DNA of 64,000 nt, from NCBI GenBank assembly GCA_023511455.1, contig JAIMBJ010000011.1, positions 13,637 to 77,636 on the forward strand, given 5' to 3'. Both the position numbers and the translations under genes were made by a program. Shown here in pieces: positions 12,431 to 29,412 of the stretch; position 1 is the stretch's first letter, and every line of letters starts with the position of its first letter. The DNA is from Bacillota bacterium (GTDB lineage Bacteria; Armatimonadota; HRBIN16). The notes under the pieces are model-generated. The model was not told where the DNA came from, did no database searches, and saw only the letters and a list, made by a program, of their open reading frames with translations.

Positions 12431-13012
12431 TCATTTCGCGTCCACCAGATAGCTCAGCTTGCGCCGTAGCGTCTCGCGCGCCCGCGCCAGTCGCGACAGC
12501 ACCGTGTTTTTCGGCACCCCCAGTACCTGTGCCACTTCAGAGATGCCCATATCTTCCAGATAGTACATGGTCACCACCTCGCGGTGATTCTCGGGCAGAG
12601 AGCGCACTGCCTGCCATACCGCCTCCTGCATCGCCTCGGAGAGGGCAATCTGCTCCGGGTTCTCCGACCAGTCAGCCGCCTCCACTGGCTCTGTCTCTCC
12701 ATCTTCATCATCGGTGAAGGTGCTCTCCAGAGAAACGGTAGTGAGCTGTTTGCGCTTTCTCCAGTCCAGCACCGCGTTGCGTGCGATGCGATGTAACCAC
12801 ACCCAGAAGGCTTCGTTCGCCTGCAGTTGCTTCAGCCCACTCCACGCGCGCAGGTAGACCTCCTGCATCAGGTCTTCGGCGTCCTCTGAGGTGGGTACCA
12901 TCTGGCGGATATACTGATAGATGCGCCGGTGGGTGTGCTGATACAGATCGCCAAAGGCGTCTACGTCACCCGCTCTGGCGCGTTCCACCAGTTGATTGTC
13001 CCGTTCGAACAT
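12431..13012 (-). CDS. ECF-type RNA polymerase sigma-70 family factor
   Basis: Region 2 (DLMQEVYLRAWSGLKQL) and region 4 HTH (MGISEVAQVLGVPKNTVLSRLARARETLRRKL). The start was set at MFERDNQLVERARAGD. The ORF-track N-terminal extension is junk. Confidence 0.85.
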   Translation of the reverse strand: MFERDNQLVERARAGDVDAFGDLYQHTHRRIYQYIRQMVPTSEDAEDLMQEVYLRAWSGLKQLQANEAFWVWLHRIARNAVLDWRKRKQLTTVSLESTFTDDEDGETEPVEAADWSENPEQIALSEAMQEAVWQAVRSLPENHREVVTMYYLEDMGISEVAQVLGVPKNTVLSRLARARETLRRKLSYLVDAK

Positions 13013-13146
13013 GGTACCCACCCATATCCCTTCTAAACGGATAAGACGAACCAGAAGGGGAGGAGATTCCCTCTCTTTCCCCCACCATGACGCCGAACGG
13101 CTCGGCGGAAACCTCACCACCAGTGAATATCGCCGAGAGAGTGCAG

Positions 13147-15612
13147 CTACTCGCCCACGCGCCACTCCAGAATGCCAGCAGAGTATCCTGCCCTGAGCTT
13201 GACCTCTAACCGCAACGCCGCAGCCACTACCGGCTCGAACTCGACGCGGTTGAAAGCGTCCTTACGTGTTTCTTCGCTGTGAGTGACCTTCACCGGATAC
13301 CACTGCTGACCGTCGGACCACAGCACGCGCCACGACTCCGGAAGACGGCACTGTCCGCCAGCCGGCTCGTCGTCAAACCAGTAGACCTCACACCACGAGA
13401 TGCGGCGCGGGCGGGCAAACACGTATTGCACCCACTCGGTGGTGCCCGTGTGGTCCCACCAGGTGAAGCGCGGGATGCTCCAATCTGCAGACGAAGAGGG
13501 CAAAAGCCCATCGTTCAGCGCGAGCACCGTGTCGGCGTGCCAGCAGTGCGAAGCCTCTGCAATGACCGTATTCGTCTCCTGCCAGACGTTGGCGTTCGGG
13601 CCCTCGCCTATCTGTGGGAAAGCCGACACACGCAATCGGGCACATCCCATGGGAATCAGGATGATGTCCTCCACAGGCTCGTCCGAGCGCACCGGTGATT
13701 CCTGTACCTCTCCAATCAGCCCGTTCGCCTCCAGACGCCACTGCGGGATGCGTTTGCCTTTCGCCCTGAGCAGGACGGGCGCGTTCTCTGGAGTGAAGGG
13801 TTGTGCGGCAACCTTGTCTGGCTTCCTGACGACCTCAAACGACATCTGCGGGTTGCTCAAGTCCACTATCAGCCCGTAGTTCCACGCGGTGGTGGGGAAA
13901 ACTTCGTACGCGGGGAAGCGGTCGGTGCCCCCGTAGCGTTCCCATCGTTCGCCTATCCGCAGGGAGAAAGCCAGCGGGCCGAGGTAAACGGAGACAGTGT
14001 TACGGTTTTTGTCCCATACTTTAACAAATAGTGGCATAGTCAGGGTTAGCCTGACACGGTCACCGTCGCGCCATTCGCGCTGCAGGAGTATCCAGCCTTT
14101 CGCCGGTGAGGGTAGTCGCTGTGACTGTCCGTTCACCTCCACGCGTGGCGTTTCGCACCAGCCGGGCACGCGCAGGGTGAGTGGGAACCGCACCGATTTT
14201 GGCGTGCGGATGGTCAACTGCACCTCCTCTCCGAAGGGGTAATCGGTCTCTTCCACGATTTCCACCGTCGTGCCATCGGCAACTTTCGCCTCCACCCGGC
14301 AGGGCGCGTAAAAGACAGCTGCCAGCCCGTTGCCCGGCGTTGCCATCCACAGGTGCTCCGCGAAGTAGGGCCATCCGAACGCCACGTTATGCTGGCAACA
14401 GCGGTAGTCGTAGGGGTTATAGGAAAGCATGTCGCCGCCGTTTTGCAGCAGTGGCGCTTTGCTCTGACGGTCGAGTTGCACCATGTTGGGCGCGGTGAGG
14501 TAGTGCAGCCCCTTCAGGTCGGGCGTCATGGCAGCGGGCAGTGAGTTGAAGGCGACTTCCTCGCACCGGTCTGCCCACTTGCCGTCACCGGTGATGCGCG
14601 TGAGCAGCTGGTGGCTGTACATCATCTCCACCATCGAACAGGTCTCCGCCGCCTGCCGGGGACCGGTGAAGCCAGGGCGAGCGTTCTCATCCGCACCGAA
14701 CATCCCGCCTGGCACCTGCCCATAGATGCCCATGACCGTATCGTACACGCGCTCGGTAGCCCGCAGGTAGCGAATATCACCGGTTTGCTGGTAGTACTGG
14801 GCGGGTTCGCGGAAGCCCTGGCAGATATTCACCCCGTGCCAGGTGGGGATGTCACCCACCCAATCCGCGGTGCGTTCATGGGTAACCCGCGCGGCGTCCA
14901 GCATCCACTTCTCCCCCGTGAGGTTGTACAGCCAGTGGATGGTGTCCAGGTTGTCGCCGCCGCGCACTTTCTGCCAGCTGCCGGGCAGGAACTTCTCCAG
15001 CGGCACGGTCATCTGCCAGCGGAAGTATTTGAGCATGAAGGGGATGACGCGCGGGTCGCCGGTGGCTTCGTAATGGGTGCGCAGCGCGTACAGCGCAATC
15101 ATGTTCGGCCAGAGGTCCATCGCGGCGCGGTTGCTTTCTGGACCGAAGTAGCCGTCTTCGCGCTGGCTGGCGAGAATGGCGTCGATCCACCGTCTTGCTT
15201 CAGTGATTATGCGCTGGTCTCCCAGCACGTAGCCCAGTGAGGTAAACCCCTTGAGCCAGTAGGGGAGCTCCTCCCAGCCATTTTCACCTTGCCCCTGCGG
15301 GTTTGCCCACGCACTGCCCTCAAACCGGCACCATGAGCTGATTTCGGTCAAATGCCCGGTGAAGCCGTCCGCCATCAGTTCCAGTTGATGACGGAGCCAG
15401 CCCTCGGGTCGGATAGAGCCGGCAGGCAGTTTGATGAGCGGGCTGGGCAGCAGCGGCGCCCGGTTGCCCGCGTAATGACGGTTCGCCGGCGAGGTTGGAA
15501 GAGTGATGGTTATCTTCATCGTTGCATTCCTCTCCGCAGAGTATTGTTGTGCATCAACTACCGTTATCACCCATAGCGTAGCGACCAGAAGGGACGCTTG
15601 TTTCATTCCCAC
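13147..15612 (-). CDS. Secreted six-hairpin glycoside hydrolase, DUF1680/GH127-like (candidate beta-L-arabinofuranosidase) with a C-terminal discoidin-like domain
   Basis: Signal peptide. An (alpha/alpha)6-type region is present. An E-T-C motif (AETCSMVEMMY) and a Cys-Cys pair (YDYRCCQHNVAFGWPYF) are reminiscent of the GH127 Zn/catalytic site. The 150-aa C-terminal beta-sandwich is F5/8-like. Confidence 0.5.
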   Translation of the reverse strand: MGMKQASLLVATLWVITVVDAQQYSAERNATMKITITLPTSPANRHYAGNRAPLLPSPLIKLPAGSIRPEGWLRHQLELMADGFTGHLTEISSWCRFEGSAWANPQGQGENGWEELPYWLKGFTSLGYVLGDQRIITEARRWIDAILASQREDGYFGPESNRAAMDLWPNMIALYALRTHYEATGDPRVIPFMLKYFRWQMTVPLEKFLPGSWQKVRGGDNLDTIHWLYNLTGEKWMLDAARVTHERTADWVGDIPTWHGVNICQGFREPAQYYQQTGDIRYLRATERVYDTVMGIYGQVPGGMFGADENARPGFTGPRQAAETCSMVEMMYSHQLLTRITGDGKWADRCEEVAFNSLPAAMTPDLKGLHYLTAPNMVQLDRQSKAPLLQNGGDMLSYNPYDYRCCQHNVAFGWPYFAEHLWMATPGNGLAAVFYAPCRVEAKVADGTTVEIVEETDYPFGEEVQLTIRTPKSVRFPLTLRVPGWCETPRVEVNGQSQRLPSPAKGWILLQREWRDGDRVRLTLTMPLFVKVWDKNRNTVSVYLGPLAFSLRIGERWERYGGTDRFPAYEVFPTTAWNYGLIVDLSNPQMSFEVVRKPDKVAAQPFTPENAPVLLRAKGKRIPQWRLEANGLIGEVQESPVRSDEPVEDIILIPMGCARLRVSAFPQIGEGPNANVWQETNTVIAEASHCWHADTVLALNDGLLPSSSADWSIPRFTWWDHTGTTEWVQYVFARPRRISWCEVYWFDDEPAGGQCRLPESWRVLWSDGQQWYPVKVTHSEETRKDAFNRVEFEPVVAAALRLEVKLRAGYSAGILEWRVGE

Positions 15613-16537: not shown

Positions 16538-16791
16538 TTAACCCTCCTGCCGCTTACAGAAGGGGCGGACGCCCTGCAAAGGAGCCTGTTGATAAAGGCA
16601 TTCCGTCATCAGGTTCTGCCGTTGTCCGGTGAAGTCCCCACACACCTCCAGTCGCGTGCCTCTTCCTGCGCGCGAAGGATATGACGTCCGGCAATAACCA
16701 GATGCGCGTTCGTGTGTTCCAGCAGCAGCGCCGCAATCCACCTGCCGGTGCTGCCATAGCCTCCCAAAACGCCTATCTTCGGCGCAGCCAT
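16538..16791 (-). pseudogene. 5' remnant of a saccharopine-dehydrogenase-like NAD(P)-binding oxidoreductase gene, truncated at the low-GC insertion
   Basis: MAAPKIGVLGGYGSTGRWIAALLLEHTNAHLVIAGR is a Rossmann N-terminus with its own RBS (ggag). All three frames terminate within about 250 nt, just before the low-GC gene. Confidence 0.4.
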
Positions 16792-19700
16792 TGTACGCCG
16801 CTCAGGACTCCCGAAAGAGATTGCACCTGCACGGTCAGGTTCGCCCAGTCCCCCTTGCCGAAGTCGCCCCTGCCGATGAGCAGCGCAACCCAGCCGCCGT
16901 CCAGCGCGATGGTTTCGCCCGGTTTGACTTCCTGCTTGACATCCTGCCAAAGGTCGGGATGCTGTCCGCCGCCGGGGTCTTTCCAGAAGGTGCACTTCCA
17001 CTTTTCCGACTCGAAGGGCATTGAACCGTAGAACAGCCCTGCCTGCGTATGGCTCCATGCACCCGCGTTCAGGTAATAATTGGGCACTCCGGCAGGCTGG
17101 TCATCCCTGCCGTCGCCGTGCAGCTGGCTCTGGGCATAGTGGTACACTGCCTCCACGCGCAGTGGAATTGCGCTCAGGTTCTGCAGGCGACGCATCCGCA
17201 CCAGCAGCATCGGCTGCAGCAGGTCTTCACGCACCTCCATTTCCCATTCCACGCGGTAGCTTTGCGGACGTGCCTGCTGTGCCGCAAAAACCCCCGTCTG
17301 CTGGTTCACTTCGGTAATCGCGGAGCCATCGCGGTGGGTCAGCCAGCCGCGCAGGTAGTGTCCAAACGGTGTCCCCACCAGTTGCACCCCTTCGTGGCGA
17401 TTGGGGGGTACCCATTGCATCTGCGACAGGCTCTGCTGCACCAGCACGGTGTAGCTGCCTATCCGCTGCCCCTGCCAGTAGATGGTGCGTATCGGTGCCC
17501 GCTCGTTTCCAAATAGCAGGTCAAAGTTTGGGGATTTCAGCTGGAAATCGGCAGCGATGGTGTAGTCCTGCGGACGGCGTTCCTGGCGTGCCGGCACAAA
17601 CAGCACCAGCCCACTCCACGTCCTGCCCGGTGGCACGTTCTGCACATACAGCCATAGCCGTTGCCGGAAGAGCGGCTCGATGTGGAACCGCACCGCCTTG
17701 CCGTCCATGCTCACACACCGCCACTCGCCAGATTGTTGTTGCGCCATTGGATGTTCGGGCAGGTCGATCCCTATCCAGCCAGAGAACGGCTGTCGATTCG
17801 TATTCTGCAAATCCACCTGCCACGCCAGCGTAGCTTGTGAGGGAATGTTCCACCGCCGACGCGGGAATGCTGGCTTGCTAACTGGCGGTGGTTGCGGGCT
17901 TCGCGTGCGGTATCGCACGGATTCGGTGTGCATCGCGTATACCTTTGCCTGCAATTCTGTTGCAGTTTGTACGAGAATCTTATACGGTTCGCCCTGCTCG
18001 TTCACCAGCCCGTAGTTGCTGTCTTCGGGGAAGGTGCTGCTGATGCCCAGTGCAGGCTCATCCACCCACATGAAGAAGTTAGACCCCACCATAAACGGCA
18101 GGTGAAACACGGCAGACTGGAAAATGCGGAAGCACTCCGCCCGCTGTTGCTGCGTATCCACCCGCATACCCGCGCCGTGTTTGCAGGGAAGGCCACTGTC
18201 CAGCGCGGGGAAGCTCCATTCCGTAATCATCAGGGGGCGTCTGGACTGCCGATAGTATTCGCGCAGCCGTTCTTCCCAGTCCAGCACACACCCTGCACGC
18301 AGGTCGATGCGGGGATAGGTGTTGATGCTCACCACGTCGCAGTACTTCCCTGCGATGTCCAGAATGGGTGGCGCCTCCCCTGCGAAGCGGCAGCCCAGAA
18401 CCAGATGGTTGGGGTCGTGCTTGCGGATGGCTTCCGCGCAGGTTCGGAAATAGAGCTCCGCCGCCAGACGGGTGAAGGCGATGCCGTCCTCCTCTGCCGC
18501 CTTTGTGCGGATGGTGGGTGGTTGCTCGCCGTGCGCGATGTCGTCGAAATCGCGGATGCGGGCATCCCATGCGCGGTTGAATGCCTGCACATCGCCCCGA
18601 TAGCGGTCGCGCAGCAGCTGCGCCAGAGCCACGCGAGAGTCGTGCCCCCTTGCACGTTTCAACGCCTCGATGGCGATCCCCCACGGTTTGTAATCCTTGC
18701 CGAACCACTCCAGCTCGTTGTCCAGAAAATAGCCGATAAGCCAGGGGTCGTCTCGCAGGGGAGCGCAACGCTGGTAGGCTATCCAGTCACACCATTGCTG
18801 CCATCGCGGAGAGAATACGTTGGGAAACCCCGTCCAGTGAACCTGTTTCACCAAATCGTCAATAGCGGCAAAGCCCTGTCCCATGCCCAGAATGTTATCG
18901 ATGTATGCCAGCCCCTGATGGCGGAGGTAGGACGAATGGTTCGCGGCAAGGATATTGAAGTTCCAGCTTTTCAGACGCTGCAGGGTTTCCTGTGCCCACG
19001 CCTGCTCGGAACCGTGTCGCCTCTTCATATTCTCATGGTAAGGGGCGTAACCCAGCTTCTCGCACCAGTGCACAAAGTAGCTGGTGTGGTCGGTACCGAG
19101 TGCGAAGAAGAGCCGCCCCTCGGGGTCAATGAACCACCAGACGCCGTCTATCTCCTCCACGCGGAAAAAGCCGGTAGCCTGGCGTACCTTCCTGCCCACG
19201 TGCGCCACCTTGTAGGCTGGTCGGGGCTTCTGTTCGGGACGTGGTGGCTCGGCAGGTACGGTGTTGCGCGTCTCTATTTGCGAGAAGGTGGCGTCGAAAG
19301 CGTTGCAGGTCAACCCCAGATAGCCCGCACGCACCGCCTTCGGATTATCCAGTGCCCATTCGTATGCCCAGCAGAGCGTATTTTGCGCGTCGTAGATTTC
19401 TCCGCGGATAGTTTGCGCGTTCCAAATCAGGCGCAGGCAGTACGGCTTTCCGTACTCCCAGCTCCAGTCGGGAAGGCTGAAGCTCTGCTTAACGGTGAGA
19501 CGGGTAGCGGGTTCATTGCCCGCCAGCCAGGTGCCACCGTACAGCTCGTGCAATTCGGCGGTGTGGCGATACTGCAGGTTTTCGGGAGCTTCCACCAGAT
19601 TCAGCCGCCAGTGGTGGCGGTCATCCTGCCACAGGGTGATGCCCACCGTTTTCCAGTAGGTCGGGTTAGTGACAGCGCGATGCACCACCACCGTCGCGTT

Positions 19701-19826
19701 CAGTTCGCCCGCCTGCGAGAAGCTGTCCTTCAGCAACAGCGCACCCTGGGGCATCTCCGCGCGCACCGTGCCGTCATCCTGCACCGTCCATCCAAACGGT
19801 ATTATCTGCCACCGTGTTTGAGGCAT
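16773..19826 (-). CDS. Large (1017-aa) glycoside hydrolase with a clan GH-A TIM-barrel core and extra N- and C-terminal domains
   Basis: Candidate acid/base NE motif (FLDNELEWFG) and nucleophile motif (LMITEWSF). No signal peptide. The GH family is not assignable by eye. Confidence 0.7.
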   Translation of the reverse strand: MPQTRWQIIPFGWTVQDDGTVRAEMPQGALLLKDSFSQAGELNATVVVHRAVTNPTYWKTVGITLWQDDRHHWRLNLVEAPENLQYRHTAELHELYGGTWLAGNEPATRLTVKQSFSLPDWSWEYGKPYCLRLIWNAQTIRGEIYDAQNTLCWAYEWALDNPKAVRAGYLGLTCNAFDATFSQIETRNTVPAEPPRPEQKPRPAYKVAHVGRKVRQATGFFRVEEIDGVWWFIDPEGRLFFALGTDHTSYFVHWCEKLGYAPYHENMKRRHGSEQAWAQETLQRLKSWNFNILAANHSSYLRHQGLAYIDNILGMGQGFAAIDDLVKQVHWTGFPNVFSPRWQQWCDWIAYQRCAPLRDDPWLIGYFLDNELEWFGKDYKPWGIAIEALKRARGHDSRVALAQLLRDRYRGDVQAFNRAWDARIRDFDDIAHGEQPPTIRTKAAEEDGIAFTRLAAELYFRTCAEAIRKHDPNHLVLGCRFAGEAPPILDIAGKYCDVVSINTYPRIDLRAGCVLDWEERLREYYRQSRRPLMITEWSFPALDSGLPCKHGAGMRVDTQQQRAECFRIFQSAVFHLPFMVGSNFFMWVDEPALGISSTFPEDSNYGLVNEQGEPYKILVQTATELQAKVYAMHTESVRYRTRSPQPPPVSKPAFPRRRWNIPSQATLAWQVDLQNTNRQPFSGWIGIDLPEHPMAQQQSGEWRCVSMDGKAVRFHIEPLFRQRLWLYVQNVPPGRTWSGLVLFVPARQERRPQDYTIAADFQLKSPNFDLLFGNERAPIRTIYWQGQRIGSYTVLVQQSLSQMQWVPPNRHEGVQLVGTPFGHYLRGWLTHRDGSAITEVNQQTGVFAAQQARPQSYRVEWEMEVREDLLQPMLLVRMRRLQNLSAIPLRVEAVYHYAQSQLHGDGRDDQPAGVPNYYLNAGAWSHTQAGLFYGSMPFESEKWKCTFWKDPGGGQHPDLWQDVKQEVKPGETIALDGGWVALLIGRGDFGKGDWANLTVQVQSLSGVLSGVQWLRRR

Positions 19827-20156: not shown

Positions 20157-21038
20157 ATGAAGGTCTGCGTAGAGTGGTGGACAGCGCTGTCGGCGTATGT
20201 GGATAATGCCCTGCCGCCAGATGAACGCGAGCAGGTGGAAGCGCATCTGGAGCAGTGCGCGGGATGTCAGGAGGCGGTGGTGCATCTGCAGTCACTGCGA
20301 CGGGTAGTAAGCCTTTTGCCTCCACAAGAGCCTCCGCCGATGCTGAAGGCACGCATTCTGTCGGCGACGGTGGACCAACCTACATGGACAGAACGACTGG
20401 CAATGGGCTGGCGACGGATGGCATGGCGTGCCGCGCTGACGACCGCCGTGGTATTGATAGCGATGTTTGTGTGGCAGTTTATCCCCCGACAGGTGCCTCA
20501 GATGGTGAGCACCCTCGCATTGCGTAACCCGCAGAGCCAGCCATCCGCCATGCCTCAGCGGTTCAGTGGTTCTCTATCTGCCCAAAAGCAAGGCGGTGTG
20601 GCTTCGTTGAATATGGGGACTCGTGCGGTGCGGCGTTCGGTAGCACAGCAACCTGCAGCTCCTGCGAAGACACCGTCGGTGAAAAACGAGGCAAAATGGT
20701 CTGCAGTGACTCGTGCGCGAATCACCCCTGCTCCTGCTCCGACCGATGCGTTGCAGGGCGAGCCGGTCATGGAAGAGGACGTGCCCCACATCGACGTCAA
20801 TAGTCCGCCTGCGGGTACGGACAATGTGATTGCCGAACAACCGGAAGAGATGGAGGACAGCAAAACCGTCGCGACGCGCTTCACTCTTCCGGCAGAAGTC
20901 GTGCCCTCTCCAACGCAGGGACTGGAGTCTTTACGGGAGCAAATCCGCATTCGGGGTGCGGAACAACTGAAAGGGCAGCTGGAGCGTAAGATCGAGCGCA
21001 AACAGGTCGAATTGGACGTTATCAAAGTTCGGTTCTGA
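20157..21038 (+). CDS. Orphan anti-sigma-factor-like membrane protein (zf-HC2 N-terminus, one TM helix, long low-complexity periplasmic tail)
   Basis: HLEQCAGCQEA zinc motif. A TM segment (AALTTAVVLIAMFVWQFI) is present. The Ala/Pro/Gln-rich tail ends in an amphipathic helix. The start is at the Met preceded by the RBS gggggatggg. No sigma gene is adjacent. The stop overlaps the next start (TGATG). Confidence 0.7.
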   Translation: MKVCVEWWTALSAYVDNALPPDEREQVEAHLEQCAGCQEAVVHLQSLRRVVSLLPPQEPPPMLKARILSATVDQPTWTERLAMGWRRMAWRAALTTAVVLIAMFVWQFIPRQVPQMVSTLALRNPQSQPSAMPQRFSGSLSAQKQGGVASLNMGTRAVRRSVAQQPAAPAKTPSVKNEAKWSAVTRARITPAPAPTDALQGEPVMEEDVPHIDVNSPPAGTDNVIAEQPEEMEDSKTVATRFTLPAEVVPSPTQGLESLREQIRIRGAEQLKGQLERKIERKQVELDVIKVRF

Positions 21039-24000
21039 TGAGGTTATCGGTTCGTTACATATTGCTGGCGGCTGCCGCCTTCGCAGTCATGGCGACCGCG
21101 TGGGGACAGGATAACACACCTCCCACCATACCCCTCGCGGAAGGGCGTATTACTGCCTCCAAATCGCCGTCGGCTGGTTCTCAGGTGGGACAGGCAAACG
21201 CCGACCTGCTGCGCGGCAATGGCACGCGAGCCGGCTACCTGCTGCGCTACGGCAATATCGTGCCCGAAAGCGAGCGTGTGATGGTAGACGCTCGTACCCT
21301 GCAGCGCAATCAGGACTATACCATTGACTATACGACAGGCACTATCTTCTTCACCGAGCCGGTGCGCACCTCGCAGACGATACGGGTGTATTACCGCTAC
21401 GTGCCCGGCTCCAGTGAACAGCGTGGATTGCTGCAGGCTCCCTCGATGAGGCTGCAGTTCGGACAGAGCCAGCTGAACATGATGTACAGCTCCAGCGCGT
21501 TCCTGCGCCGCGAGGACGGTACCACCCTGCAGACCGATACCTACGGTATGCAGACCCGCCTGAATCTGAATAGCAACAGTGCTGTGGAAGGCTTGCTGTT
21601 CTTCTCCTCGCAGCGGGCAATACAGGCGGTGGCAGACCCCACCCTGCAACCGGGTGCGCCTTCACGTCCGAATACGCAAGCCGCCGCCGGCTCCGACCGG
21701 CTCATTCTGCAGAACCTGAACTGGAGCGTGGGCGGGCTGCAGCTGCGAGGCATGTATCAGGACGTAGGGCAGCGCTTCGCGGGTTTCGCCGCTCTGCGCG
21801 AGCAAAAAGCTGCCCCCGACCAGCTGCTCGGCTGGCTGGAGAAAGAGCGGGGGATGCGCCGCATGAGCTACGGGCTGGGCTACGTGGCTGGCGGGATGAA
21901 CCTGCAGACCGATGTCAGCCGCATCACCGATGGCAAGGGGGATATCCGACAGACGCATTACAGCGTGCAGACCAAACAGATGGAGCTGCGCTTCAGCGAG
22001 ACCAAGATCGATCCCCAATTCCAGCGCTTCAATGACCTGCGTGAAGACCAGCGAGCACAGTGGGCGAAGGAGCGCGGACTAACGCGCGACACCCTCTCCG
22101 CCCTGTTTCGCCTGAGCGGCAACTCACAGCTGGGTTTTGAGCGTCAGCGCATCCTCGATTCGGGTAGTAGCATCGAGCTGACAAACTACGCGCTGCAAAC
22201 CGCCGGACTGAAGCTCACTTACAGCACACAGGACATCGATAAAGAGTTCACCCGCTTCAACGACCTTGCCGAGGGACAGCGGGCACAGTGGGCGAAGGAG
22301 CGAGGCTGGGTGCGCTCTTTCTTGAGGGCAGAGCTGCCTCCGTTCAAAGGCACGAACCTGCCCAACCTGTTTATGCAGCAAACCATCCGTACCGAGACGG
22401 GTAACCTGAACTTGCGTCAGATATCGCTGAACACCCAGACGGTGCAGGTGGACTATACCCGACTCGGCACCGACCCCAGTTTCGCGGTGGCAAACCTCAC
22501 GCCGGAAGAGATAAACCAGATGGCACTGCTGGCGCGTCAGCAGGTGGAACCCGGCGCGAACGCCGTCACCGACAAAGACAGGCAGCAGGTTCTGCGCGAG
22601 GCGGGGTTGCAGCGAGAGACCCTGCGCATGAACATGACTGCAGCCGCCAACACACAGGTCAGCGTCATGAAAACAACGGTAGAAGACGCCAGTGGTGACG
22701 TGAAGCGCATGCAGGTCGCTTACACCAGCCCCAAGTTCGAGGTAGCTTATCAGCAGCAGAGCATCAGCGAAGGTTTCAACCGACTGGGAGACCTGACCGA
22801 CCCCGAGCGCAAGCTGTACGCTGCGGAGACGGGTATCGCGCGGAGGCTCATCAGCACGCGCCTCGCACTGGACAAGAACACCGCCATCAGCGCACTGTTC
22901 GGCAATATCCGCGATTCGCAGGGTTCGATTATCAAACAGTCTTACGCCCTGCGCACGCCGCGCCTGTCGTTGTTTGCCAATATCAAGCAGGTAGACCCCA
23001 CCTTCTCGCGCATTGGCGACCTGACCGAGACCGACCGCAACGACCTGAGCGGTTTGCTGGGCTTCAAGTACTTCGACATGGCGGCGCAATGGCAGGTCAG
23101 TAAAACGCTGTGGTTTGAGGGCTTCTGGATCGACTCGCACAACGCCCAGGTGCAACAGATGCACCGACGCCAGCGCCTGTACTTCCAGTATCAACCCGCG
23201 GCGACCACACGCATTACACACCTGAACGACCGTACCAACCGCGATGGCGCAACGGAAGTACTGCATCGCCAGTGGCGTGAGACCACCGCCATCGACCACG
23301 CGCTCGGAAAAGGGCTGAAGTTCTCCGCGTATCGCGATCGGGTGGAGGAAGAGGGCGTACTGCTCGAACCCACCACCTCGTTGACCAACTTCTGGCGCGT
23401 GGAATCCGACAAGAGCCGACCGGTATGGTTTGTGGTGGAGCAGAAACACCTGCGCCGCACCGACGGCTACTACGATACCGCCGATACCGTGCAGGTGCAA
23501 ACGCCCGTCTCCAGGAGCGCTGTCATGCAGTTCACCGAGCAGAGGTTCGGGCGCAGCGATCGCCCTTCCGAGTTGATACGCACGGTATCCTCCCAGTGGC
23601 TGCTGCGCAAAGACCTGACCTTTGCCATGAGCCTGTCGCGCCGCACCACCAGCGCCGATACCGGCAGCCTGCTGAAGAGCTTTGCGCTGTCGGGTCCGGT
23701 GCTGAACTTTGCCAACGTCACAGGCAAGTACGACGAACTGCGCGTGGACCGCGTGAACACCAAAGCGCAGAGCGAGATATCCGTCTCGTCGCTGAAGCCG
23801 TTCAACGCACTGGGCTTGACCAACATCCAGTTCACCGGTGCATACGCTGCGCTGGCAGACAGGGCAACCTGGCAAAAAGAGACGCGCAGTGGGCGCATCA
23901 CCGCGAATCTGGGCAAGCACAGCCTGCTGGCGGAATACACCTCCGCCTTTATCCCGCAGGCAGCCGACCGTTTGGTGATGCGCACGTATCAGTTCACCGT

Positions 24001-24529
24001 CGCCCCCATGAGCAACTTCAAAGGGGAAATATACTACCGCATGATTGAACAGCCGAATATGGGGACATGGCACGTGCGCCGCTACGCGTTAGACTGGCAG
24101 CTGAATCCGAACACCTCGATCAGCCATCAGTTCCTGACCCTGCCTGAGCAGGGCAATAACCGCGTGCAGCCGATAGGGCTGGACGTGTGGAAAATGAGCA
24201 CGCGCCTGAACAGTCGCCAGGTGCTGAACGGGGAGTACCGAATCGAAACCGACTACGCCAAACGCCAGATTATCCGCCGTGCGCTGTTGAGCGTGGCTGG
24301 CAGGCTCTCTGCCCTCTCCAGTGGTGAGGTGGGTTACAGCCTGGACTCGGTGAACTACCAGGGCAACAAGGGAACAGCGCATTCCTTCCACCTGCGCTAC
24401 GGCTGGCAACTGGACGATGACCATTTCCTCAACTTGAGCCTGCGCCTGACCAACTACCAGCACCGCGTGCCGCACGGTCTTTCGCGCAATGAGCTGGCGG
24501 GCGCGCTCGAGTACAAGACGCCGTTCTGA
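21038..24529 (+). CDS. Large outer-membrane beta-barrel-type protein (1163 aa) with five internal repeats of about 70 aa
   Basis: Signal peptide MRLSVRYILLAAAAFAVMATAWG. The repeat motif is [beta-strand]-x-(I/V/T)-D-P-x-F-x-R-(F/I/L)-(N/G)-D-L-(R/A/T)-E-x-x-R, found at KIDPQFQRFNDLREDQR, DIDKEFTRFNDLAEGQR, GTDPSFAVANLTPEE, SISEGFNRLGDLTDPER and QVDPTFSRIGDLTETDR. The C-terminal Phe (YKTPF) is typical of OM barrels. The gene is translationally coupled to the upstream ZAS-like gene. Confidence 0.8.
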   Translation: MRLSVRYILLAAAAFAVMATAWGQDNTPPTIPLAEGRITASKSPSAGSQVGQANADLLRGNGTRAGYLLRYGNIVPESERVMVDARTLQRNQDYTIDYTTGTIFFTEPVRTSQTIRVYYRYVPGSSEQRGLLQAPSMRLQFGQSQLNMMYSSSAFLRREDGTTLQTDTYGMQTRLNLNSNSAVEGLLFFSSQRAIQAVADPTLQPGAPSRPNTQAAAGSDRLILQNLNWSVGGLQLRGMYQDVGQRFAGFAALREQKAAPDQLLGWLEKERGMRRMSYGLGYVAGGMNLQTDVSRITDGKGDIRQTHYSVQTKQMELRFSETKIDPQFQRFNDLREDQRAQWAKERGLTRDTLSALFRLSGNSQLGFERQRILDSGSSIELTNYALQTAGLKLTYSTQDIDKEFTRFNDLAEGQRAQWAKERGWVRSFLRAELPPFKGTNLPNLFMQQTIRTETGNLNLRQISLNTQTVQVDYTRLGTDPSFAVANLTPEEINQMALLARQQVEPGANAVTDKDRQQVLREAGLQRETLRMNMTAAANTQVSVMKTTVEDASGDVKRMQVAYTSPKFEVAYQQQSISEGFNRLGDLTDPERKLYAAETGIARRLISTRLALDKNTAISALFGNIRDSQGSIIKQSYALRTPRLSLFANIKQVDPTFSRIGDLTETDRNDLSGLLGFKYFDMAAQWQVSKTLWFEGFWIDSHNAQVQQMHRRQRLYFQYQPAATTRITHLNDRTNRDGATEVLHRQWRETTAIDHALGKGLKFSAYRDRVEEEGVLLEPTTSLTNFWRVESDKSRPVWFVVEQKHLRRTDGYYDTADTVQVQTPVSRSAVMQFTEQRFGRSDRPSELIRTVSSQWLLRKDLTFAMSLSRRTTSADTGSLLKSFALSGPVLNFANVTGKYDELRVDRVNTKAQSEISVSSLKPFNALGLTNIQFTGAYAALADRATWQKETRSGRITANLGKHSLLAEYTSAFIPQAADRLVMRTYQFTVAPMSNFKGEIYYRMIEQPNMGTWHVRRYALDWQLNPNTSISHQFLTLPEQGNNRVQPIGLDVWKMSTRLNSRQVLNGEYRIETDYAKRQIIRRALLSVAGRLSALSSGEVGYSLDSVNYQGNKGTAHSFHLRYGWQLDDDHFLNLSLRLTNYQHRVPHGLSRNELAGALEYKTPF

Positions 24530-24707: not shown

Positions 24708-25670
24708 ATGATTGTTCCAACCCGTATTCTGTTCGAGCACGCATACGGCAAGTATGCGCTCGGCGCGTACAACATCAACAACCTCGAGCAGGCAATGGGG
24801 CTGTTCAGGGGTAACATGGAGTCGCAGGCGCCTTTCATCATTCAGATTAGCAAAGGCGCACGCTCCTACACCGATAAACGGATGCTGGAAGCGATTATCC
24901 GCACGGCGGAGCAGATATGGCCGGACGCGCTGTTCGCAGTGCATCTGGACCATGGTGATGAGCAGACATGCTACGACTGCATCGAGAGCGGGTTCTACTC
25001 GTCGGTGATGATCGACGGCTCGCACCTGCCCTTCGAGGAGAACATCGCGGTGACGAAGCGTGTCGTGGAAGCCGCACACGCCAAAGGCATCAGCGTGGAG
25101 GCGGAGCTGGGTATGCTGGGCGGTGTGGAAGAGCACATCTCCGTAGACGAGAAGGACGCCCGCCTGACCGACCCCGCTGAGGCGGAGGAGTTCGTCAAGC
25201 GCACTGGGTGCGATAGTCTGGCAGTGGCTATCGGCACCAGCCACGGCGCGTACAAGTTCAGCGGCTCCCAGCGGATCCATCTGGACCGCGTGGAGGCGAT
25301 TCAGAAGCGTCTGCCCGGCTTCCCGCTGGTGATGCACGGTTCGTCCTCGGTGCCGCAGGAGGAGGTCGAGCGTATCAACGCCGCGGGCGGCTGCCTGAAA
25401 GGCACCAAAGGCGTGGACCCCTCGCAGTATCTGCCCGCTGCCAAACTGGGTGTGTGCAAGATTAACATCGACACCGACGGACGCCTCGTCTGGTGCCGTG
25501 TGCATCGCGAGTTCTTCCGCGACCACTGCGATAAATTCGACCTGCGCGAGCCGGGTAAAATCTTCATGGCGGAATACGCCAAGTTCATCGCCAGCCGCAA
25601 CGAACTGCTCGGCTCAGCGGGACAGCTCGAGTCGGCTCGCGAATACGCGAAGAAAGCGCTGGCGAAGTAG
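24708..25670 (+). CDS. fba: Fructose-bisphosphate aldolase, class II
   Basis: YALGAYNINNLEQ ... VHLDHGDE ... GISVEAELG, and a full-length match to class II FBA/tagatose-bisphosphate aldolase. Confidence 0.9.
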   Translation: MIVPTRILFEHAYGKYALGAYNINNLEQAMGLFRGNMESQAPFIIQISKGARSYTDKRMLEAIIRTAEQIWPDALFAVHLDHGDEQTCYDCIESGFYSSVMIDGSHLPFEENIAVTKRVVEAAHAKGISVEAELGMLGGVEEHISVDEKDARLTDPAEAEEFVKRTGCDSLAVAIGTSHGAYKFSGSQRIHLDRVEAIQKRLPGFPLVMHGSSSVPQEEVERINAAGGCLKGTKGVDPSQYLPAAKLGVCKINIDTDGRLVWCRVHREFFRDHCDKFDLREPGKIFMAEYAKFIASRNELLGSAGQLESAREYAKKALAK

Positions 25671-27418: not shown

Positions 27419-27588
27419 CCGGCGCATCCCATGCAAACACCCGCGCCAAAGGTGCTGTCCTTCCTGGTGGCGAATCTGTCGCTCAGCGGAGCAATGCAGG
27501 ATAACGCGGGGTCTTCAAGGTTCCTGGTCCGCTCAAAATGACCAGCTACCTTACGTGCTTATCTCAAAAGGCTATTTTTCCGGTTTAC

Positions 27589-29412
27589 ATGCGGCGCATA
27601 AGGCTTGTCCTGTTCTGCCTGGGTTTGACAGGCTGGTTGTTTTGTGTGCTGCCAGCGGGAGCACAGCGGGTCGCGGTGGTTTGCCTGCGGTCGACTGAAG
27701 TGCCCTTGCTGATTCGTCACACTGCGACAATGCCAGGCGCGCAGGCGTTGTTGCTCAGTCGCGTGGCTTCCTCGCCGTGGCGACCATCTTCCCTCCTGTC
27801 TCGTGAGCAATGGGAGCGCAGCGCATACCTCACCCTCAATGCGGGCACGCGCGCTCGGGTAACCGAAAGCCTCTCACCAAACGGAATGGAACGGCTGCGG
27901 CAGCTGGAGCAGATAAACTGTTGCTGGGGATATCCCGTGGTCGTGGGACTGCTTCCGGAGGAACTGAAGGCAAGGGGAGTACGGTTGCACTACCTGACTA
28001 CCCGTCGCGACTCACCGATGCTGCTGGCAGGTGCGCCCTTTCCCGAGGTGGATGCCCGCGTCGTTATGGATTCAGCAACCCTGTTTGCCGTGGCGCAATT
28101 CGTCTTGCGCGGGCACTCGCGGTTGATGCTATGGATAGATGCGGACACGGTGGAGCCTGCTCAGCTGGAGCCGCTGGTGCGGCGTTTGCAAACCGTCCTC
28201 ACCCAACCCACCGACGTGCTCTATCTGCTGATGCCGATTCCATCCCCTTCCGAGGCGGCGAGAGGCTCCCAGCTGGGGTGGGTGCTGCGACTGGGCAGAG
28301 ACGGTGAGGGCTTGCTGGTCTCAGGTTCGTCTCGTCTGCCGGGCTACATCACCCTGCCTGACCTTACCGCAACGTGGCTGTCGCACTTTGGCTGTACAAA
28401 GATGCCTGCCGGGGCGGTGGGGTTGCCCGCTCGCGTGTCGCCCGACGACAGCCCTGCTCAGACGATGCAACGCCTGTATGACTCGCTGGTGCGGCAGGCG
28501 TGGTGGAACCATACGATAGGCGCGTTGCCGACGGTGCAGCTGGTCGCGCTGGTAGTGGCATGGTTGTGGTGGTGGCGGCGGCGAGTGGTGCGTTCGTTGT
28601 GGTTGTTTCCCTGCGTAGTGCCTGTGCTGGGGATATCGCTGGTACCGGTGCTCATCTGCCTGCCTCTGGGGGGCATCTCGTGGCAGGCGCGAGTGGCAAT
28701 CTGGCTTATCAGCGCGGGAGGGTTGCTCATTGCGCTGTCGCGCTTGCCGTTGAGTCAGAGCCTGCGTGGTCTGGGCACGGTTCTCCTGGTGTTTGCAGGG
28801 GTAGACCTGCTGCACGGCGGGAATCTGCTGCGCTGGAGCGGCTACGGCTATGTGCTGCAGGAAGGGGCGCGTTTCTACGGTGTGGGCAATGAGATGGCGG
28901 GTAGCCTGTTCGGGGCGCAGAGCGGGTTTCTGCTCGCGGAGAGCGGGACCTGGAGCCTGTTGCGCTGGACGCTGACCGCCGTGGCAATGGGCGCGCCGTT
29001 CTGGGGTGCGAATACGGGAGCAATGTTGTCGGCATTTGGTGTGGCGATGCTCCACGCCCTGCGCCGATGGCGCTGGTGGGGAGCAGGGATGCTATTGTGC
29101 GCACTGGCGGTTGTGGTGCTCTGGGAGTTCCTCTCGCCCAATCCGTCGCATCTGGGCAGGTTCCTGCAAGACCCGTCGCTGTGGTTACCCACGATAGCAC
29201 GCAAAGCGCAGATGAATCTGAGCCTCCTGCTGAGCAGTGCATGGACGCCGCTCCTGTTGTTTGGATTGTGTGGTTTGAGGGGCGCGCCCGCGCCGGTTTG
29301 GGCAGGGGCGATTTTGCTGCTGGTGTTGAACGACTCCGGCGTGGTGGCTGCGGCGTCGATGCTGACGTGGTGGTGGGCATGGCGTGTGGCGCAGCGGGAA
29401 GCGGAGTCATAG
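27589..29412 (+). CDS. Membrane protein: periplasmic alkaline-phosphatase-superfamily-like domain fused to a C-terminal polytopic domain (paralog 1)
   Basis: Signal peptide MRRIRLVLFCLGLTGWLFCVLPAGAQ. The C-terminal multi-TM region carries an FYGVGNEMAG motif shared with the paralog at 30152-31954. Confidence 0.7.
   Translation: MRRIRLVLFCLGLTGWLFCVLPAGAQRVAVVCLRSTEVPLLIRHTATMPGAQALLLSRVASSPWRPSSLLSREQWERSAYLTLNAGTRARVTESLSPNGMERLRQLEQINCCWGYPVVVGLLPEELKARGVRLHYLTTRRDSPMLLAGAPFPEVDARVVMDSATLFAVAQFVLRGHSRLMLWIDADTVEPAQLEPLVRRLQTVLTQPTDVLYLLMPIPSPSEAARGSQLGWVLRLGRDGEGLLVSGSSRLPGYITLPDLTATWLSHFGCTKMPAGAVGLPARVSPDDSPAQTMQRLYDSLVRQAWWNHTIGALPTVQLVALVVAWLWWWRRRVVRSLWLFPCVVPVLGISLVPVLICLPLGGISWQARVAIWLISAGGLLIALSRLPLSQSLRGLGTVLLVFAGVDLLHGGNLLRWSGYGYVLQEGARFYGVGNEMAGSLFGAQSGFLLAESGTWSLLRWTLTAVAMGAPFWGANTGAMLSAFGVAMLHALRRWRWWGAGMLLCALAVVVLWEFLSPNPSHLGRFLQDPSLWLPTIARKAQMNLSLLLSSAWTPLLLFGLCGLRGAPAPVWAGAILLLVLNDSGVVAAASMLTWWWAWRVAQREAES

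What the first reader, a model, noticed from the sequence alone, without database searches (positions are those of the whole stretch)
21940..23060. Five-fold internal repeat with a conserved D-P-x-F-x-R-(F/I/L)-(N/G)-D-L-x-E-x-x-R motif inside the outer-membrane protein
Five segments of about 70 aa each end a beta-strand-like stretch with the motif: KIDPQFQRFNDLREDQRAQWAKERG, DIDKEFTRFNDLAEGQRAQWAKERG, GTDPSFAVANLTPEEINQMALL, SISEGFNRLGDLTDPERKLYAAETG and QVDPTFSRIGDLTETDRNDLSGLLG. The first two are also about 70% identical at the DNA level. Five tandem periplasmic repeats followed by a C-terminal barrel resemble the POTRA x5 plus barrel layout of BamA only in outline. The sequences do not match POTRA domains, and no VRGF motif is present. 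This may be a new repeat or domain type.
Basis: seen in the sequence. Interest (0 to 1): 0.6.

Follow-up and report, generated by a model that had tools for sequence, protein, structure and literature searches.

The report
Six-fold repeat building a giant outer-membrane sheet
The repeat is real but has six copies, and each copy is four wall strands plus a conserved helical loop of a very large, unannotated outer-membrane protein found only in Armatimonadota, not a string of POTRA-like domains; if the roughly 55-strand sheet closes into one barrel, it would be much larger than any solved single-chain barrel.

Summary
The 1163-aa ORF (window 21038-24529, +) has six tandem units of about 76 aa, not five. 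The extra copy lies at aa 214-275, and the third unit carries a 25-aa insert.

The units match no Pfam, NCBIfam or PDB family. They are not POTRA or TPR, and there is no VRGF motif.

AlphaFold2 (pLDDT 85-88) predicts each unit as four antiparallel strands of about 10 residues with tight turns, followed by the conserved motif as a 24-residue helical loop. Covariation across 449 repeat units independently supports this. It recovers all four strand pairings, and the strongest joins the last strand of one unit to the first strand of the next.

The repeats are therefore wall segments of one continuous beta-meander of about 55 strands. They are not periplasmic domains placed ahead of a barrel.

The family is widespread, with 1817 cluster representatives. 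Every named locus is from Armatimonadota. Family members usually end in Phe, as outer-membrane barrels do. In 16 of 18 loci the gene follows an anti-sigma-like membrane protein, and in the window's clade the two genes overlap by one base.

I could not test whether the sheet closes into a single giant barrel. Function is inferred only.

The parts
20157..21038 (+). Upstream partner gene. It encodes an anti-sigma-like membrane protein: an N-terminal zf-HC2 domain with HxxxCxxC, one hydrophobic span, a long low-complexity linker, and a C-terminus ...QVELDVIKVRF. The mechanical ORF starts at GTG 20103; ATG 20157 is the likely start. Its TGA stop overlaps the ATG of the next gene by one base (TGATG).
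   Evidence: Pfam zf-HC2 1.5e-12 and NCBIfam anti-sigma 2.3e-14. Sequence read. A homologous upstream gene is present in 16 of 18 loci, with the 1-nt overlap in all 11 close relatives.
21038..24529 (+). ORF of 1163 aa: a large outer-membrane-type beta protein with no family annotation.
   Evidence: No Pfam, NCBIfam or PDB sequence hit. 31 full-length homologues. 1817 cluster representatives at E<=1e-3.
21038..21106 (+). Signal peptide (MRLSVRYILLAAAAFAVMATAWG|QD). The cleavage site is inferred.
   Evidence: Read from the sequence. pLDDT is below 50 for aa 1-49.
21185..21400 (+). N-terminal small beta domain (aa ~50-121) with the motif SE-V-VD-x-L-x-x-x-DY-IDY-x-G. It shows weak local similarity to modules inside SprA and to phage tail proteins.
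   Evidence: Five strands in the AF2 model. TIGR04189 SprA local hits in 5 of 16 relatives, best 4.5e-7, none for the window protein itself. Domain profile against PDB SprA 6h3i, E 0.005. Weak DUF2460 / tail-tube hits.
21443..21766 (+). First six predicted strands (aa 136-243). The last two belong to repeat unit 0. Confidence is lower here (pLDDT 50-88).
21677..21862 (+). Repeat unit 0 (aa 214-275): two strands plus a motif loop with an insert (QDVGQRFAGFAALREQKAAPDQLLGWLEKERGMRR).
   Evidence: HMM i-E 1.1e-5 although the unit was not in the training set. F247, E270, G272 and R275 are invariant in 16 homologues.
21866..22090 (+). Repeat unit 1 (aa 277-351): four strands (274-284, 287-297, 302-311, 315-324) plus the motif loop (325-348).
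22091..22318 (+). Repeat unit 2 (aa 352-427).
22319..22618 (+). Repeat unit 3 (aa 428-527). It is divergent, and its motif loop is lengthened by about 25 aa into two helices (489-503, 512-518).
   Evidence: HMM i-E 1.5e-6 plus a tail match. Helices. Some homologues lack one unit here.
22619..22846 (+). Repeat unit 4 (aa 528-603).
22847..23074 (+). Repeat unit 5 (aa 604-679). Its motif loop leads directly into the first strand of the C-terminal half.
   Evidence: The S26-S27 covariation ladder scores 6.5-6.7.
23063..24517 (+). C-terminal half (aa 676-1160): 29 predicted strands joined by 2-11-residue connections, with no helical loops.
   Evidence: Adjacent-strand covariation. Amphipathicity equal to that of the repeat strands.
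24488..24526 (+). Last strand and C-terminal signal-like end (...NELAGALEYKTPF).
   Evidence: 133 of 180 family members end in Phe, mostly as x-R/K-F.

Best explanation
The six units of about 76 aa are building blocks of the wall of a very large outer-membrane beta-sheet protein. They arose by tandem amplification of a four-strand unit (two beta hairpins).

In each unit, strands 1-4 run up and down with tight turns. The conserved segment D-x-x-F-x-R-(F/L/I)-x-D-L-x-E-x-(E/D)-R-x-x-(W/L)-A-x-E-x-G-h-x-R is the long connection from strand 4 back to strand 1 of the next unit. It forms a small helical loop, and all six loops sit on the same rim of the sheet.

The loop appears to be fastened to the neighbouring conserved I-x-D-x-x-G turn between strands 2 and 3. 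Inferred contacts are R330-D298, W342-I296/I324, F328/L334-G347 and E345-R350.

I infer that these six loops act as rim clasps. They would stiffen a wall of unusually low curvature and line one mouth of the pore.

With six N-terminal and 29 C-terminal strands, the units make one continuous meander of about 55 strands. This most likely closes into a single giant barrel in the outer membrane of Armatimonadota.

The barrel probably works together with the co-translated, inner-membrane-anchored anti-sigma-like partner. That would make it either a large conduit or an envelope-spanning sensor.

Shown: the repeat, its secondary structure, the strand pairings, the family distribution and the gene pairing. 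Inferred: membrane insertion, closure, which side the loops face, and function.
For: Repeat statistics:
- Shuffle z-scores of 10-28 for units 1, 2, 4 and 5.
- An HMM recovers the untrained units 0 and 3.

Structure prediction:
- Full-length AF2: pLDDT 85, mostly above 90 across the repeats. Each unit is four strands of 9-12 residues with 2-4-residue turns, then a helical connector.
- The same result when aa 125-690 is modelled alone: pLDDT 88, pTM 0.75.

Covariation, independent of AF2:
- In 449 repeat units (Neff 380), the antiparallel ladder between strand 4 and strand 1 of the next unit scores 14.6, with 10 pairs on one antidiagonal.
- The other ladders score 7.2 (strands 2-3), 6.3 (strands 3-4) and 4.2 (strands 1-2). 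The 99th percentile of all segments is 4.0.
- The loop contacts listed in the statement also appear.
- In full-length DCA the junction pairs S14-15, S18-19, S22-23 and S26-27 score 6.1-9.3, against a background of 2.0 +/- 0.7. S26-27 scores 6.7 in a 21-state subset analysis.

Outer-membrane character:
- Signal peptide.
- C-terminal Phe in 133 of 180 members.
- One strand face is 53-55% hydrophobic and the other 25-29%, the same in the repeats and the C-terminal half.
- All 33 significant PDB fold matches of the repeat half are transmembrane beta-barrels (LptD, PapC, TonB-dependent receptors, SlpA, porins, VDAC).

Low curvature:
- rmsd to barrels of 16-26 strands is 20-35 A.
- A simple geometric simulation reproduces this only for an arc equivalent to a barrel of about 44-70 or more strands. 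A closed 26-30-strand barrel does not fit.
- The top hit of the full model is the ApoB100 beta-belt.

Modularity:
- 3-7 units are detected across the family, and protein length rises with unit number.
- Some homologues lack exactly one unit.

Gene pairing.
Against: Closure of the sheet is not shown.
- Model coordinates and predicted aligned error (PAE) were not available to me.
- Full-length pTM is only 0.48.
- No covariation supports contact between first and last strands: S1-S55 scores 1.0 and S2-S55 scores 1.5, against a background of 1.84 +/- 0.59. About 10 of 13 true neighbours score above 3.
- DSSP counts 55 strands. An odd number is unusual for bacterial barrels.

The strand 1-2 ladder is weak (4.2), and strands 2 and 3 of each unit are only weakly amphipathic.

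About 15-17% of residues on the 'hydrophobic' face are charged.

Fold matches have probability near 1 but TM-scores of only 0.1-0.28, so no solved structure resembles the global shape.

There is no experimental or annotation evidence for any function. Neighbouring genes other than the partner are housekeeping or glycoside hydrolase genes.
Confidence: 0.6

Rival explanations
1. Two barrels in one chain. The six N-terminal strands plus the repeats close into an N-terminal barrel of about 26 strands with six helical loops. The last 28-30 strands form a second barrel.
For: - pTM rises from 0.48 for the full length to 0.75 when aa 125-690 is modelled alone, as expected for two rigid bodies with an uncertain mutual position.
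- A 2026 strand-counting preprint reports predicted double-barrel proteins.
- S2-S26 reached the 96th percentile in one DCA run.
Against: - The S26-S27 pairing across the proposed border is among the strongest ladders (6.5-6.7).
- The repeat half gives rmsd 29-35 A to 24-26-strand barrels and 20-25 A to 16-19-strand barrels. A closed 26-strand barrel should give less than about 14 A.
- There is no closure signal for S27/28-S55 (0.8-0.9). S1/2-S26/27 is only 2.3-2.5 in the 21-state run.
Confidence: 0.15
2. The chain is an open sheet or an incomplete barrel. It would be completed by another strand, for example the C-terminal strand of the anti-sigma-like partner (...VELDVIKVRF), or by oligomerisation, or it would lie as an amphipathic belt.
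For: - The strand count is odd (55).
- No covariation between first and last strands, although neighbouring strands are well detected.
- In four separate lineages the partner ends in an alternating hydrophobic strand with terminal R/K-F (VRF, FRF, GRF, AKF). This is the same ending as the large protein family (LRF, TRF, IRF, VRF).
- The best fold match is the open ApoB100 beta-belt.
Against: - Three lineages (L001, L015, L016) have partners without that ending, and one locus (L002) has no partner.
- The N-terminal strands have low pLDDT and poorer alignment, so the test for closure has low power.
- No pairwise modelling of the two proteins was possible.
Confidence: 0.15
3. One reading: tandem periplasmic domains analogous to POTRA, preceding a C-terminal barrel.
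For: - The unit length of about 75 aa is similar to POTRA.
- The units lie on the N-terminal side of a strand-rich C-terminal half that has an outer-membrane-type ending.
Against: - No POTRA or any consistent Pfam hit for 25 units at E<=1, or for five units at E<=10.
- The order of secondary-structure elements differs.
- All four strand adjacencies are supported, including the one across units, so there is no domain boundary.
- Fold matches are to barrel walls only.
- No VRGF.
Confidence: 0.03
4. Not a membrane protein: a secreted or surface beta-rich protein whose amphipathic sheet packs against something other than lipid.
For: - The hydrophobic face is only 53-55% hydrophobic, with 15-17% charged residues.
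- Strands 2 and 3 of each unit are barely amphipathic.
- Loops are very short on both sides.
Against: - C-terminal Phe in 74% of members.
- Fold matches are almost exclusively to outer-membrane barrels.
- A signal peptide without a lipobox.
- The dyad pattern is the same along the whole chain.
Confidence: 0.07

Closest known systems
SprA/Sov, the type 9 secretion translocon (36-strand barrel, PDB 6H3I)
   Same: - A very large single-chain outer-membrane sheet; SprA is among the best fold hits (E about 1e-8).
- The N-terminal small domain shares a local motif (S-x-V-x-x-x-G-x-x-L-x-x-x-DY-x-x-DY-x-x-G) with modules inside SprA. TIGR04189 hits 5 of 16 relatives, and the domain profile hits PDB SprA at E 0.005.
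   Different: - SprA is about 2400 aa with large inserted domains and 36 strands. This protein is 1163 aa with about 55 strands and almost no loops.
- No full-length homology (0 PDB hits for the whole-family profile).
- The window protein itself does not hit TIGR04189.
- TM-score is only 0.16.
- No T9SS genes were seen nearby. T9SS is described as specific to Bacteroidetes (abstract of PMC7463736).
SlpA / OmpM of Deinococcus-Thermus and other Terrabacteria (30-strand barrel; 38-strand barrels predicted in D. radiodurans)
   Same: - Large barrels from deep-branching diderm bacteria.
- The best global superposition of any solved structure (TM 0.24-0.28, rmsd 15.5 A).
- The SlpA paper reports 38-strand predictions, showing that oversized barrels occur in this part of the tree (PMC9388160).
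   Different: - No SLH domain and no coiled-coil stalk (no Pfam hit).
- Nearly twice as many strands.
- Armatimonadetes already have OmpM-type tethers, so this is not that system.
LptD (26-strand lipopolysaccharide insertase)
   Same: It has the most numerous fold hits (E 1e-7 to 1e-4), and it works with a partner protein.
   Different: - No LptD/OstA Pfam match.
- No beta-jellyroll domain.
- rmsd 24-35 A and TM about 0.2.
- The strand number is about double.
BamA/Omp85 with five POTRA domains
   Same: In outline only: N-terminal repeats of about 75 aa and a C-terminal strand-rich region with an outer-membrane-type ending.
   Different: No POTRA match, a different order of secondary-structure elements, repeats that are wall strands, no VRGF, and about 55 strands rather than 16.
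Outer-membrane barrels built by amplification of beta-hairpins (general principle)
   Same: - Barrel families are described as arising by amplification of ancestral beta-beta hairpins (abstract of 10.1101/2022.10.09.511469).
- Here a double-hairpin unit is repeated six times and varies from 3 to 7 copies.
   Different: - The unit still has recognisable sequence identity and carries a conserved 24-residue helical loop.
- The total size exceeds the largest solved barrel (36 strands).
FecA-FecR-FecI type cell-surface signalling (outer-membrane protein plus inner-membrane anti-sigma factor)
   Same: An outer-membrane beta protein is genetically coupled to an inner-membrane protein with a cytoplasmic anti-sigma domain. 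The comparison rests on my own knowledge of that system.
   Different: - No TonB-dependent receptor, plug or signalling-domain match.
- The anti-sigma domain is the zf-HC2 (ZAS) type, not the FecR type.
- No sigma factor gene is adjacent.

Membership tests
POTRA repeat (Pfam PF07244) / Omp85-BamA | Sequence match to the POTRA profile | tested here: not met
   No POTRA hit for the whole protein, for five single units at E<=10, or for 25 units from eight homologues at E<=1.
POTRA repeat (Pfam PF07244) / Omp85-BamA | beta-alpha-alpha-beta-beta fold forming separate periplasmic domains | tested here: not met
   AF2 gives beta-beta-beta-beta then a helix. Covariation joins all strands, including those across units, into one sheet.
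POTRA repeat (Pfam PF07244) / Omp85-BamA | 16-strand Omp85 barrel with the VRGF/Y loop-6 motif | tested here: not met
   No VRGF or RG[FY] in the protein. No Omp85/Bac_surface_Ag Pfam hit. 29 strands follow the repeats.
TPR or other helical repeats | 34-aa helix-turn-helix units and a Pfam TPR match | tested here: not met
   The units are about 76 aa and mostly beta. No TPR hits.
Outer-membrane beta-barrel proteins (general class) | N-terminal signal peptide and a C-terminal beta-signal ending in an aromatic residue | tested here: met
   Signal-like N-terminus. The C-terminus is ...LEYKTPF. 133 of 180 family members end in F.
Outer-membrane beta-barrel proteins (general class) | Antiparallel meander of amphipathic strands with alternating hydrophobic and polar faces | tested here: met
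   55 strands in AF2. Neighbour ladders in covariation. 53-55% against 25-29% hydrophobic residues on the two faces.
Outer-membrane beta-barrel proteins (general class) | Sheet closed on itself, with an even strand number in bacteria | tested here: inconclusive
pTM is 0.48. DSSP counts 55 strands. There is no covariation between first and last strands. The rmsd pattern argues only against small closed barrels.
Outer-membrane beta-barrel proteins (general class) | Location in the outer membrane and assembly by BAM | not testable with these tools
   Needs fractionation or genetics.
SprA/Sov T9SS translocon (NCBIfam TIGR04189) | Full-length match above the curated cut-off (200 bits) | tested here: not met
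   The window protein has no hit. Five of 16 relatives have a local hit of 27-30 bits to profile positions ~597-654 only.
SprA/Sov T9SS translocon (NCBIfam TIGR04189) | Presence of other T9SS components (PorV, SprE, GldKLMN) in the genome | not tested
   Only the immediate neighbours of the gene in the window were scanned and none matched. The rest of the window and the genome were not checked.
LptD (Pfam LptD/OstA) | Profile match and an N-terminal beta-jellyroll | tested here: not met
   No Pfam or NCBIfam hit. Fold matches have TM about 0.2.
SlpA/OmpM tether | N-terminal SLH domain and a coiled coil before the barrel | tested here: not met
   No SLH hit. The N-terminal domain is a small beta domain.
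zf-HC2 (ZAS) anti-sigma factors (for the upstream partner) | Pfam PF13490 match with the HxxxCxxC motif | tested here: met
   E 1.5e-12. EAHLEQCAGC read. The motif is lost in the Fimbriimonadales-type partners.
zf-HC2 (ZAS) anti-sigma factors (for the upstream partner) | Co-transcribed cognate ECF sigma factor | tested here: not met
   The gene upstream is on the other strand. The nearest ECF sigma (window 12431-13165, -) has its own zf-HC2 partner.

The most novel reading that the evidence does not exclude
The chain forms a single outer-membrane barrel of about 54-56 strands, roughly 10 nm across by simple geometry. That is half as large again as the largest solved single-chain barrel (SprA, 36 strands) and larger than the biggest predicted ones (38 strands). 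One mouth would be ringed by six conserved helical clasps. The seam or lumen would be occupied by the C-terminal strand of a conserved inner-membrane anti-sigma-like partner. Together these would make a previously unknown envelope-spanning conduit or sensor specific to Armatimonadota.
Probability: 0.3. Interest if true: 0.85.

Novelty: new variant of a known kind. Interest (0 to 1): 0.6.

Why it matters
Barrel size limits what can cross the outer membrane and what the BAM machinery is thought able to fold. The literature read here gives 36 strands as the largest solved single-chain barrel and 38 as the largest predicted.

A conserved, phylum-wide family with a continuous meander of about 55 strands would stretch both limits. 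It is built from a double-hairpin unit whose sequence is still recognisable, so it would also give a clear living example of barrel growth by unit amplification.

The conserved, translationally coupled anti-sigma-like partner suggests a link between this wall protein and gene regulation, or a physical bridge across the envelope, in a poorly studied phylum.

Even on the modest reading, this is a new repeat and a large unannotated protein family that merits a family definition.

Tried and rejected
- **Self-BLAST** of the protein returned only the identity hit, so I replaced it with segment alignments against shuffles and an HMM.
- **Full-length covariation** used 165 sequences (Neff 146). MI-APC, reduced-alphabet DCA and a 21-state DCA on selected columns all detect neighbouring strands. 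None decides between closure hypotheses. I first mis-read the index of the neighbour list and thought the inter-unit junctions were weak. They are among the strongest.
- **Repeat profile searches.** Against the 5.8-billion-protein collection only 157 candidates shared words with the profile and none scored; the profile is too short for the word index. Against the PDB it gave only chance hits at E>0.1.
- **First genome scan** with the 16-sequence alignment failed for lack of a conserved stretch. It was repeated with six sequences.
- **HHalign** of the strand part of the unit against the C-terminal half gave four weak matches (probability 12-52%). This hints that the C-terminal half is built from the same unit but does not show it.
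- **Six-bladed beta-propeller** (four strands times six) was considered and rejected. No propeller appears among the fold matches, and the strands are about 10 residues long with barrel-like matches.
- **Outer membrane-peptidoglycan tether** was considered and rejected. There is no SLH or OmpA-like domain, and Armatimonadetes have OmpM homologues.
- **Literature searches** found no description of this family.
Full report
**The gene and the observation.**
The finding lies inside one ORF, window 21038-24529 on the + strand, encoding 1163 aa. All five quoted segments are present at aa 323-347, 399-423, 477-498, 575-599 and 651-675.

I aligned 80-aa segments around each motif and compared the scores with 200 shuffles. 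Units 1, 2, 4 and 5 are related at z = 10-28. Unit 3 is related only weakly, at z about 3.5.

A profile built only from units 1, 2, 4 and 5 of 16 homologues still recovers unit 3 (i-E 1.5e-6). That unit carries an insert of about 25 residues in its motif region. There are therefore six units of about 76 aa, spanning aa ~214-679 (nt 21677-23074).

The DNA similarity between units 1 and 2 is confirmed: 75% over 71 nt at a spacing of 228 nt. A shorter stretch links units 4 and 5. Tandem Repeats Finder reports no array of this period, so the duplication is old.

**No known family matches.**
- The whole protein, its three regions and each unit give no significant Pfam or NCBIfam hit.
- 25 units from eight homologues give no consistent Pfam hit at E<=1.
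- Family and unit profiles find nothing meaningful among PDB sequences.
- There is no POTRA or TPR hit and no VRGF motif.

**Family and distribution.**
The word-indexed search found 31 full-length relatives down to 24% identity. All are unnamed or hypothetical, and those with a phylum label are Armatimonadota. The exhaustive profile search found 1817 cluster representatives at E<=1e-3 and 283 at E<=1e-30. Most are 1050-1300 aa.

Fourteen loci from species-representative genomes are all MAGs. Those with a taxon name are Armatimonadota, Chthonomonadia or Fimbriimonadales.

The family's most conserved positions lie in the motif. Across 63 units the consensus F and G of the motif (F328 and G347 in unit 1) are invariant. 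R330, D333, L334, E336, R339, E345 and R350 are strongly conserved. So is an I-x-D-x-x-G turn earlier in the unit.

The number of detectable units ranges from 3 to 7, and protein length rises with it. Some homologues lack exactly one unit.

**What the units are.**
AlphaFold2 on a 30-sequence alignment gives mean pLDDT 85, mostly above 90 from aa 220 onward, but pTM of only 0.48. The model has three parts:
- a disordered signal region;
- a small five-strand domain (aa ~50-121);
- an uninterrupted series of about 55 beta strands from aa 136 to aa 1160.

Each repeat unit is four strands of 9-12 residues joined by 2-4-residue turns. The conserved motif follows as a 24-residue connector containing a short helix. 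Unit 3 has two longer helices.

Modelling aa 125-690 alone gives the same secondary structure, with pLDDT 88 and pTM 0.75.

**Independent support from covariation.**
I collected 449 unit sequences from 180 family members (Neff 380). Each was extended to include the first strand of the next unit, and I ran mean-field DCA on them. Four antiparallel ladders stand out:

| Strand pair | Ladder score |
|---|---|
| Strand 4 with strand 1 of the next unit (ten pairs on one antidiagonal, spanning the connector) | 14.6 |
| Strand 2 with strand 3 | 7.2 |
| Strand 3 with strand 4 | 6.3 |
| Strand 1 with strand 2 | 4.2 |

The 99th percentile of all segments is 4.0, so the strand 1-2 ladder is only just significant.

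In the full-length analysis the inter-unit junctions are among the strongest neighbour signals. S14-15 scores 9.3, S18-19 scores 6.1, S22-23 scores 6.2 and S26-27 scores 6.5, against a background of 2.0 +/- 0.7.

The pairing of the last repeat strand with the first strand of the C-terminal half is confirmed in a separate run (6.7). The sheet is therefore continuous through the repeats and into the C-terminal half. There is no domain boundary of the kind a POTRA-like arrangement would need.

**The motif loop.**
The same analysis gives contacts inside the connector and between the connector and the conserved turn on the same rim:
- D298 with R330;
- I296 and I324 with W342;
- F328 and L334 with G347;
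- E345 with R350.

I read the motif as a small helical clasp that closes the long hairpin between two neighbouring wall strands and is fastened to the adjacent I-x-D-x-x-G turn. All six clasps lie on one rim.

**Outer-membrane character.**
- The N-terminus looks like a signal peptide.
- The protein ends ...LEYKTPF, and 133 of 180 family members end in Phe, mostly as x-R/K-F.
- Strands alternate a face that is 53-55% hydrophobic with one that is 25-29% hydrophobic. The values are the same in the repeats and in the C-terminal half.
- Foldseek matches for the full model and for the repeat half are transmembrane barrels: LptD, SprA, SlpA, PapC, TonB-dependent receptors, porins and VDAC. The ApoB100 beta-belt also appears. 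Probabilities are near 1.

Weak points remain. Strands 2 and 3 of each unit are only weakly amphipathic, and 15-17% of residues on the hydrophobic face are charged.

**One barrel, two, or open?**
I could not settle this, because coordinates are not exposed and two structure libraries were unavailable. Three indirect observations bear on it:
- **Curvature.** TM-scores to all solved barrels are 0.1-0.28. The rmsd is 20-25 A to 16-19-strand barrels and 29-35 A to 24-26-strand barrels. A simple geometric simulation gives such values only for an arc with the curvature of a barrel of about 44-70 or more strands. A closed 26-30-strand barrel would give less than about 14 A. This is crude, because Foldseek alignments are gapped.
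- **Continuity.** The strong S26-S27 ladder argues against two separate barrels split at the end of the repeats.
- **No closure signal.** No covariation supports any closure pair. S1-S55 scores 1.0, S2-S55 scores 1.5, S27-S55 scores 0.9 and S1/2-S26/27 score 2.3-2.5, against a background of 1.84 +/- 0.59. About 10 of 13 true neighbours exceed 3.

The rise in pTM from 0.48 to 0.75 for the half construct fits either two rigid bodies or a wall whose long-range shape is uncertain.

I rank the readings as follows: a single very large barrel is most likely; a sheet completed by another strand or subunit comes next; a double barrel is third.

**Which side do the loops face?**
Twenty-nine strands separate the last motif loop from the C-terminus, so the motif loops are on the rim opposite the C-terminus. 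The C-terminus of such proteins is normally periplasmic; that statement rests on my own knowledge.

In the C-terminal half, connections on the motif side average 5.1 residues and those on the other side 3.4. Both points suggest the loops face outward.

Six strands precede the first motif, which would place the N-terminal domain on the same side as the loops. Confidence is lower in that region, so the orientation stays open.

**Neighbour gene.**
Immediately upstream lies a gene for a protein of about 293 aa. It has a zf-HC2 anti-sigma domain (E 1.5e-12, HxxxCxxC), one hydrophobic span, a long low-complexity region and a C-terminus ...QVELDVIKVRF. Its stop codon overlaps the start codon of the large gene (TGATG).

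A homologous gene sits upstream in 16 of 18 loci examined, including relatives at 25% identity. The one-base overlap is present in all 11 close relatives.

In four separate lineages the partner ends in an alternating strand with terminal R/K-F, like the large protein family itself. Three Fimbriimonadales-type lineages lack both this ending and the cysteines. No sigma factor gene is adjacent.

The pairing suggests a physical or regulatory link across the envelope. That is inference only.

**N-terminal domain.**
The small domain at aa ~50-121 shows weak local similarity to modules inside SprA:
- TIGR04189 hits 5 of 16 relatives, best 4.5e-7, all far below the cut-off, and the window protein itself has no hit;
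- the domain profile matches PDB SprA at E 0.005;
- there are also weak matches to phage tail proteins.

This is a lead, not evidence of membership.

**Comparison with what is known, and verdict.**
The literature read here gives 36 strands (SprA) as the largest solved single-chain barrel. It gives 38 strands as the largest predicted, in Deinococcus. I found no description of this family.

The protein belongs to the general class of outer-membrane beta proteins built by hairpin amplification, but to none of the named families tested. I rate it a new variant of a known kind.

The repeat is real and undescribed. The POTRA-like reading is wrong. The interest lies in the size and continuity of the sheet and in the conserved partner, with closure and function still to be shown.

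Noticed in passing
window 10949-13165 (-): A complete envelope-stress-type operon: an ECF sigma factor (12431-13165), a zf-HC2 anti-sigma factor (11938-12426) and a MucB/RseB-like protein (10949-11938). It lies 8 kb from the orphan anti-sigma-like gene that precedes the large protein. Whether this sigma factor is the target of the orphan partner is unknown.
   Followed up: partly
window 21000-21035 (C-terminus of the partner); L003, L004-L014, L017: The anti-sigma-like partner ends in an alternating hydrophobic strand with terminal R/K-F (VIKVRF, LVGFRF, LVRGRF, LINAKF). The large protein family has the same kind of ending. With the odd count of 55 strands, this raises the idea that the partner donates a strand to the sheet. 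It was not testable here.
   Followed up: partly
P0023, P0024, P0025, P0029 (alignment A1 columns ~470-565 and ~925-958): Some homologues lack exactly one repeat unit (from the motif of unit 2 to the motif of unit 3). P0023 and P0024 also lack two strands in the C-terminal half. Wall size therefore varies in steps of 4 and 2 strands within the family.
   Followed up: partly
P0032 (1140 aa) and P0033 (1159 aa): Two proteins of similar length from other bacteria share only the small SE-V-VDG-L-DY-IDY-G module, placed at aa ~230-370 rather than at the N-terminus. They have no repeat units. P0033 hits the SprA model locally (9.3e-8). They may be a different large-barrel family using the same module.
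   Followed up: partly
window 16773-19826 (-): A 1017-aa ORF divergent from the operon has only weak matches to the GH42 / GH2 TIM-barrel families (E 0.001-0.05). A GH127 beta-L-arabinofuranosidase lies at 13147-15612 (-). This may be a poorly annotated glycoside hydrolase.
   Followed up: no
window 27538-29412 (+): A 624-aa ORF with no Pfam hit, in a stretch where G+C rises to 0.64.
   Followed up: no
window 24708-25670 (+); L003 8268-9167 (-): A class II fructose-bisphosphate aldolase gene follows the large gene both in the window and in a relative at 25% identity, although on opposite strands. This is probably conserved gene order without a functional link.
   Followed up: no
P0001 (identical to the window protein): NCBI labels the identical protein as from a 'Firmicutes bacterium' MAG. 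All related loci with a taxon name are Armatimonadota, so the MAG is probably mislabelled.
   Followed up: partly
window 21867-21891: A 12-13-nt unit repeated twice (GCTACGTGGCTGG), encoding the G-Y-V-A-G-G turn of unit 1. It is probably a chance match.
   Followed up: no
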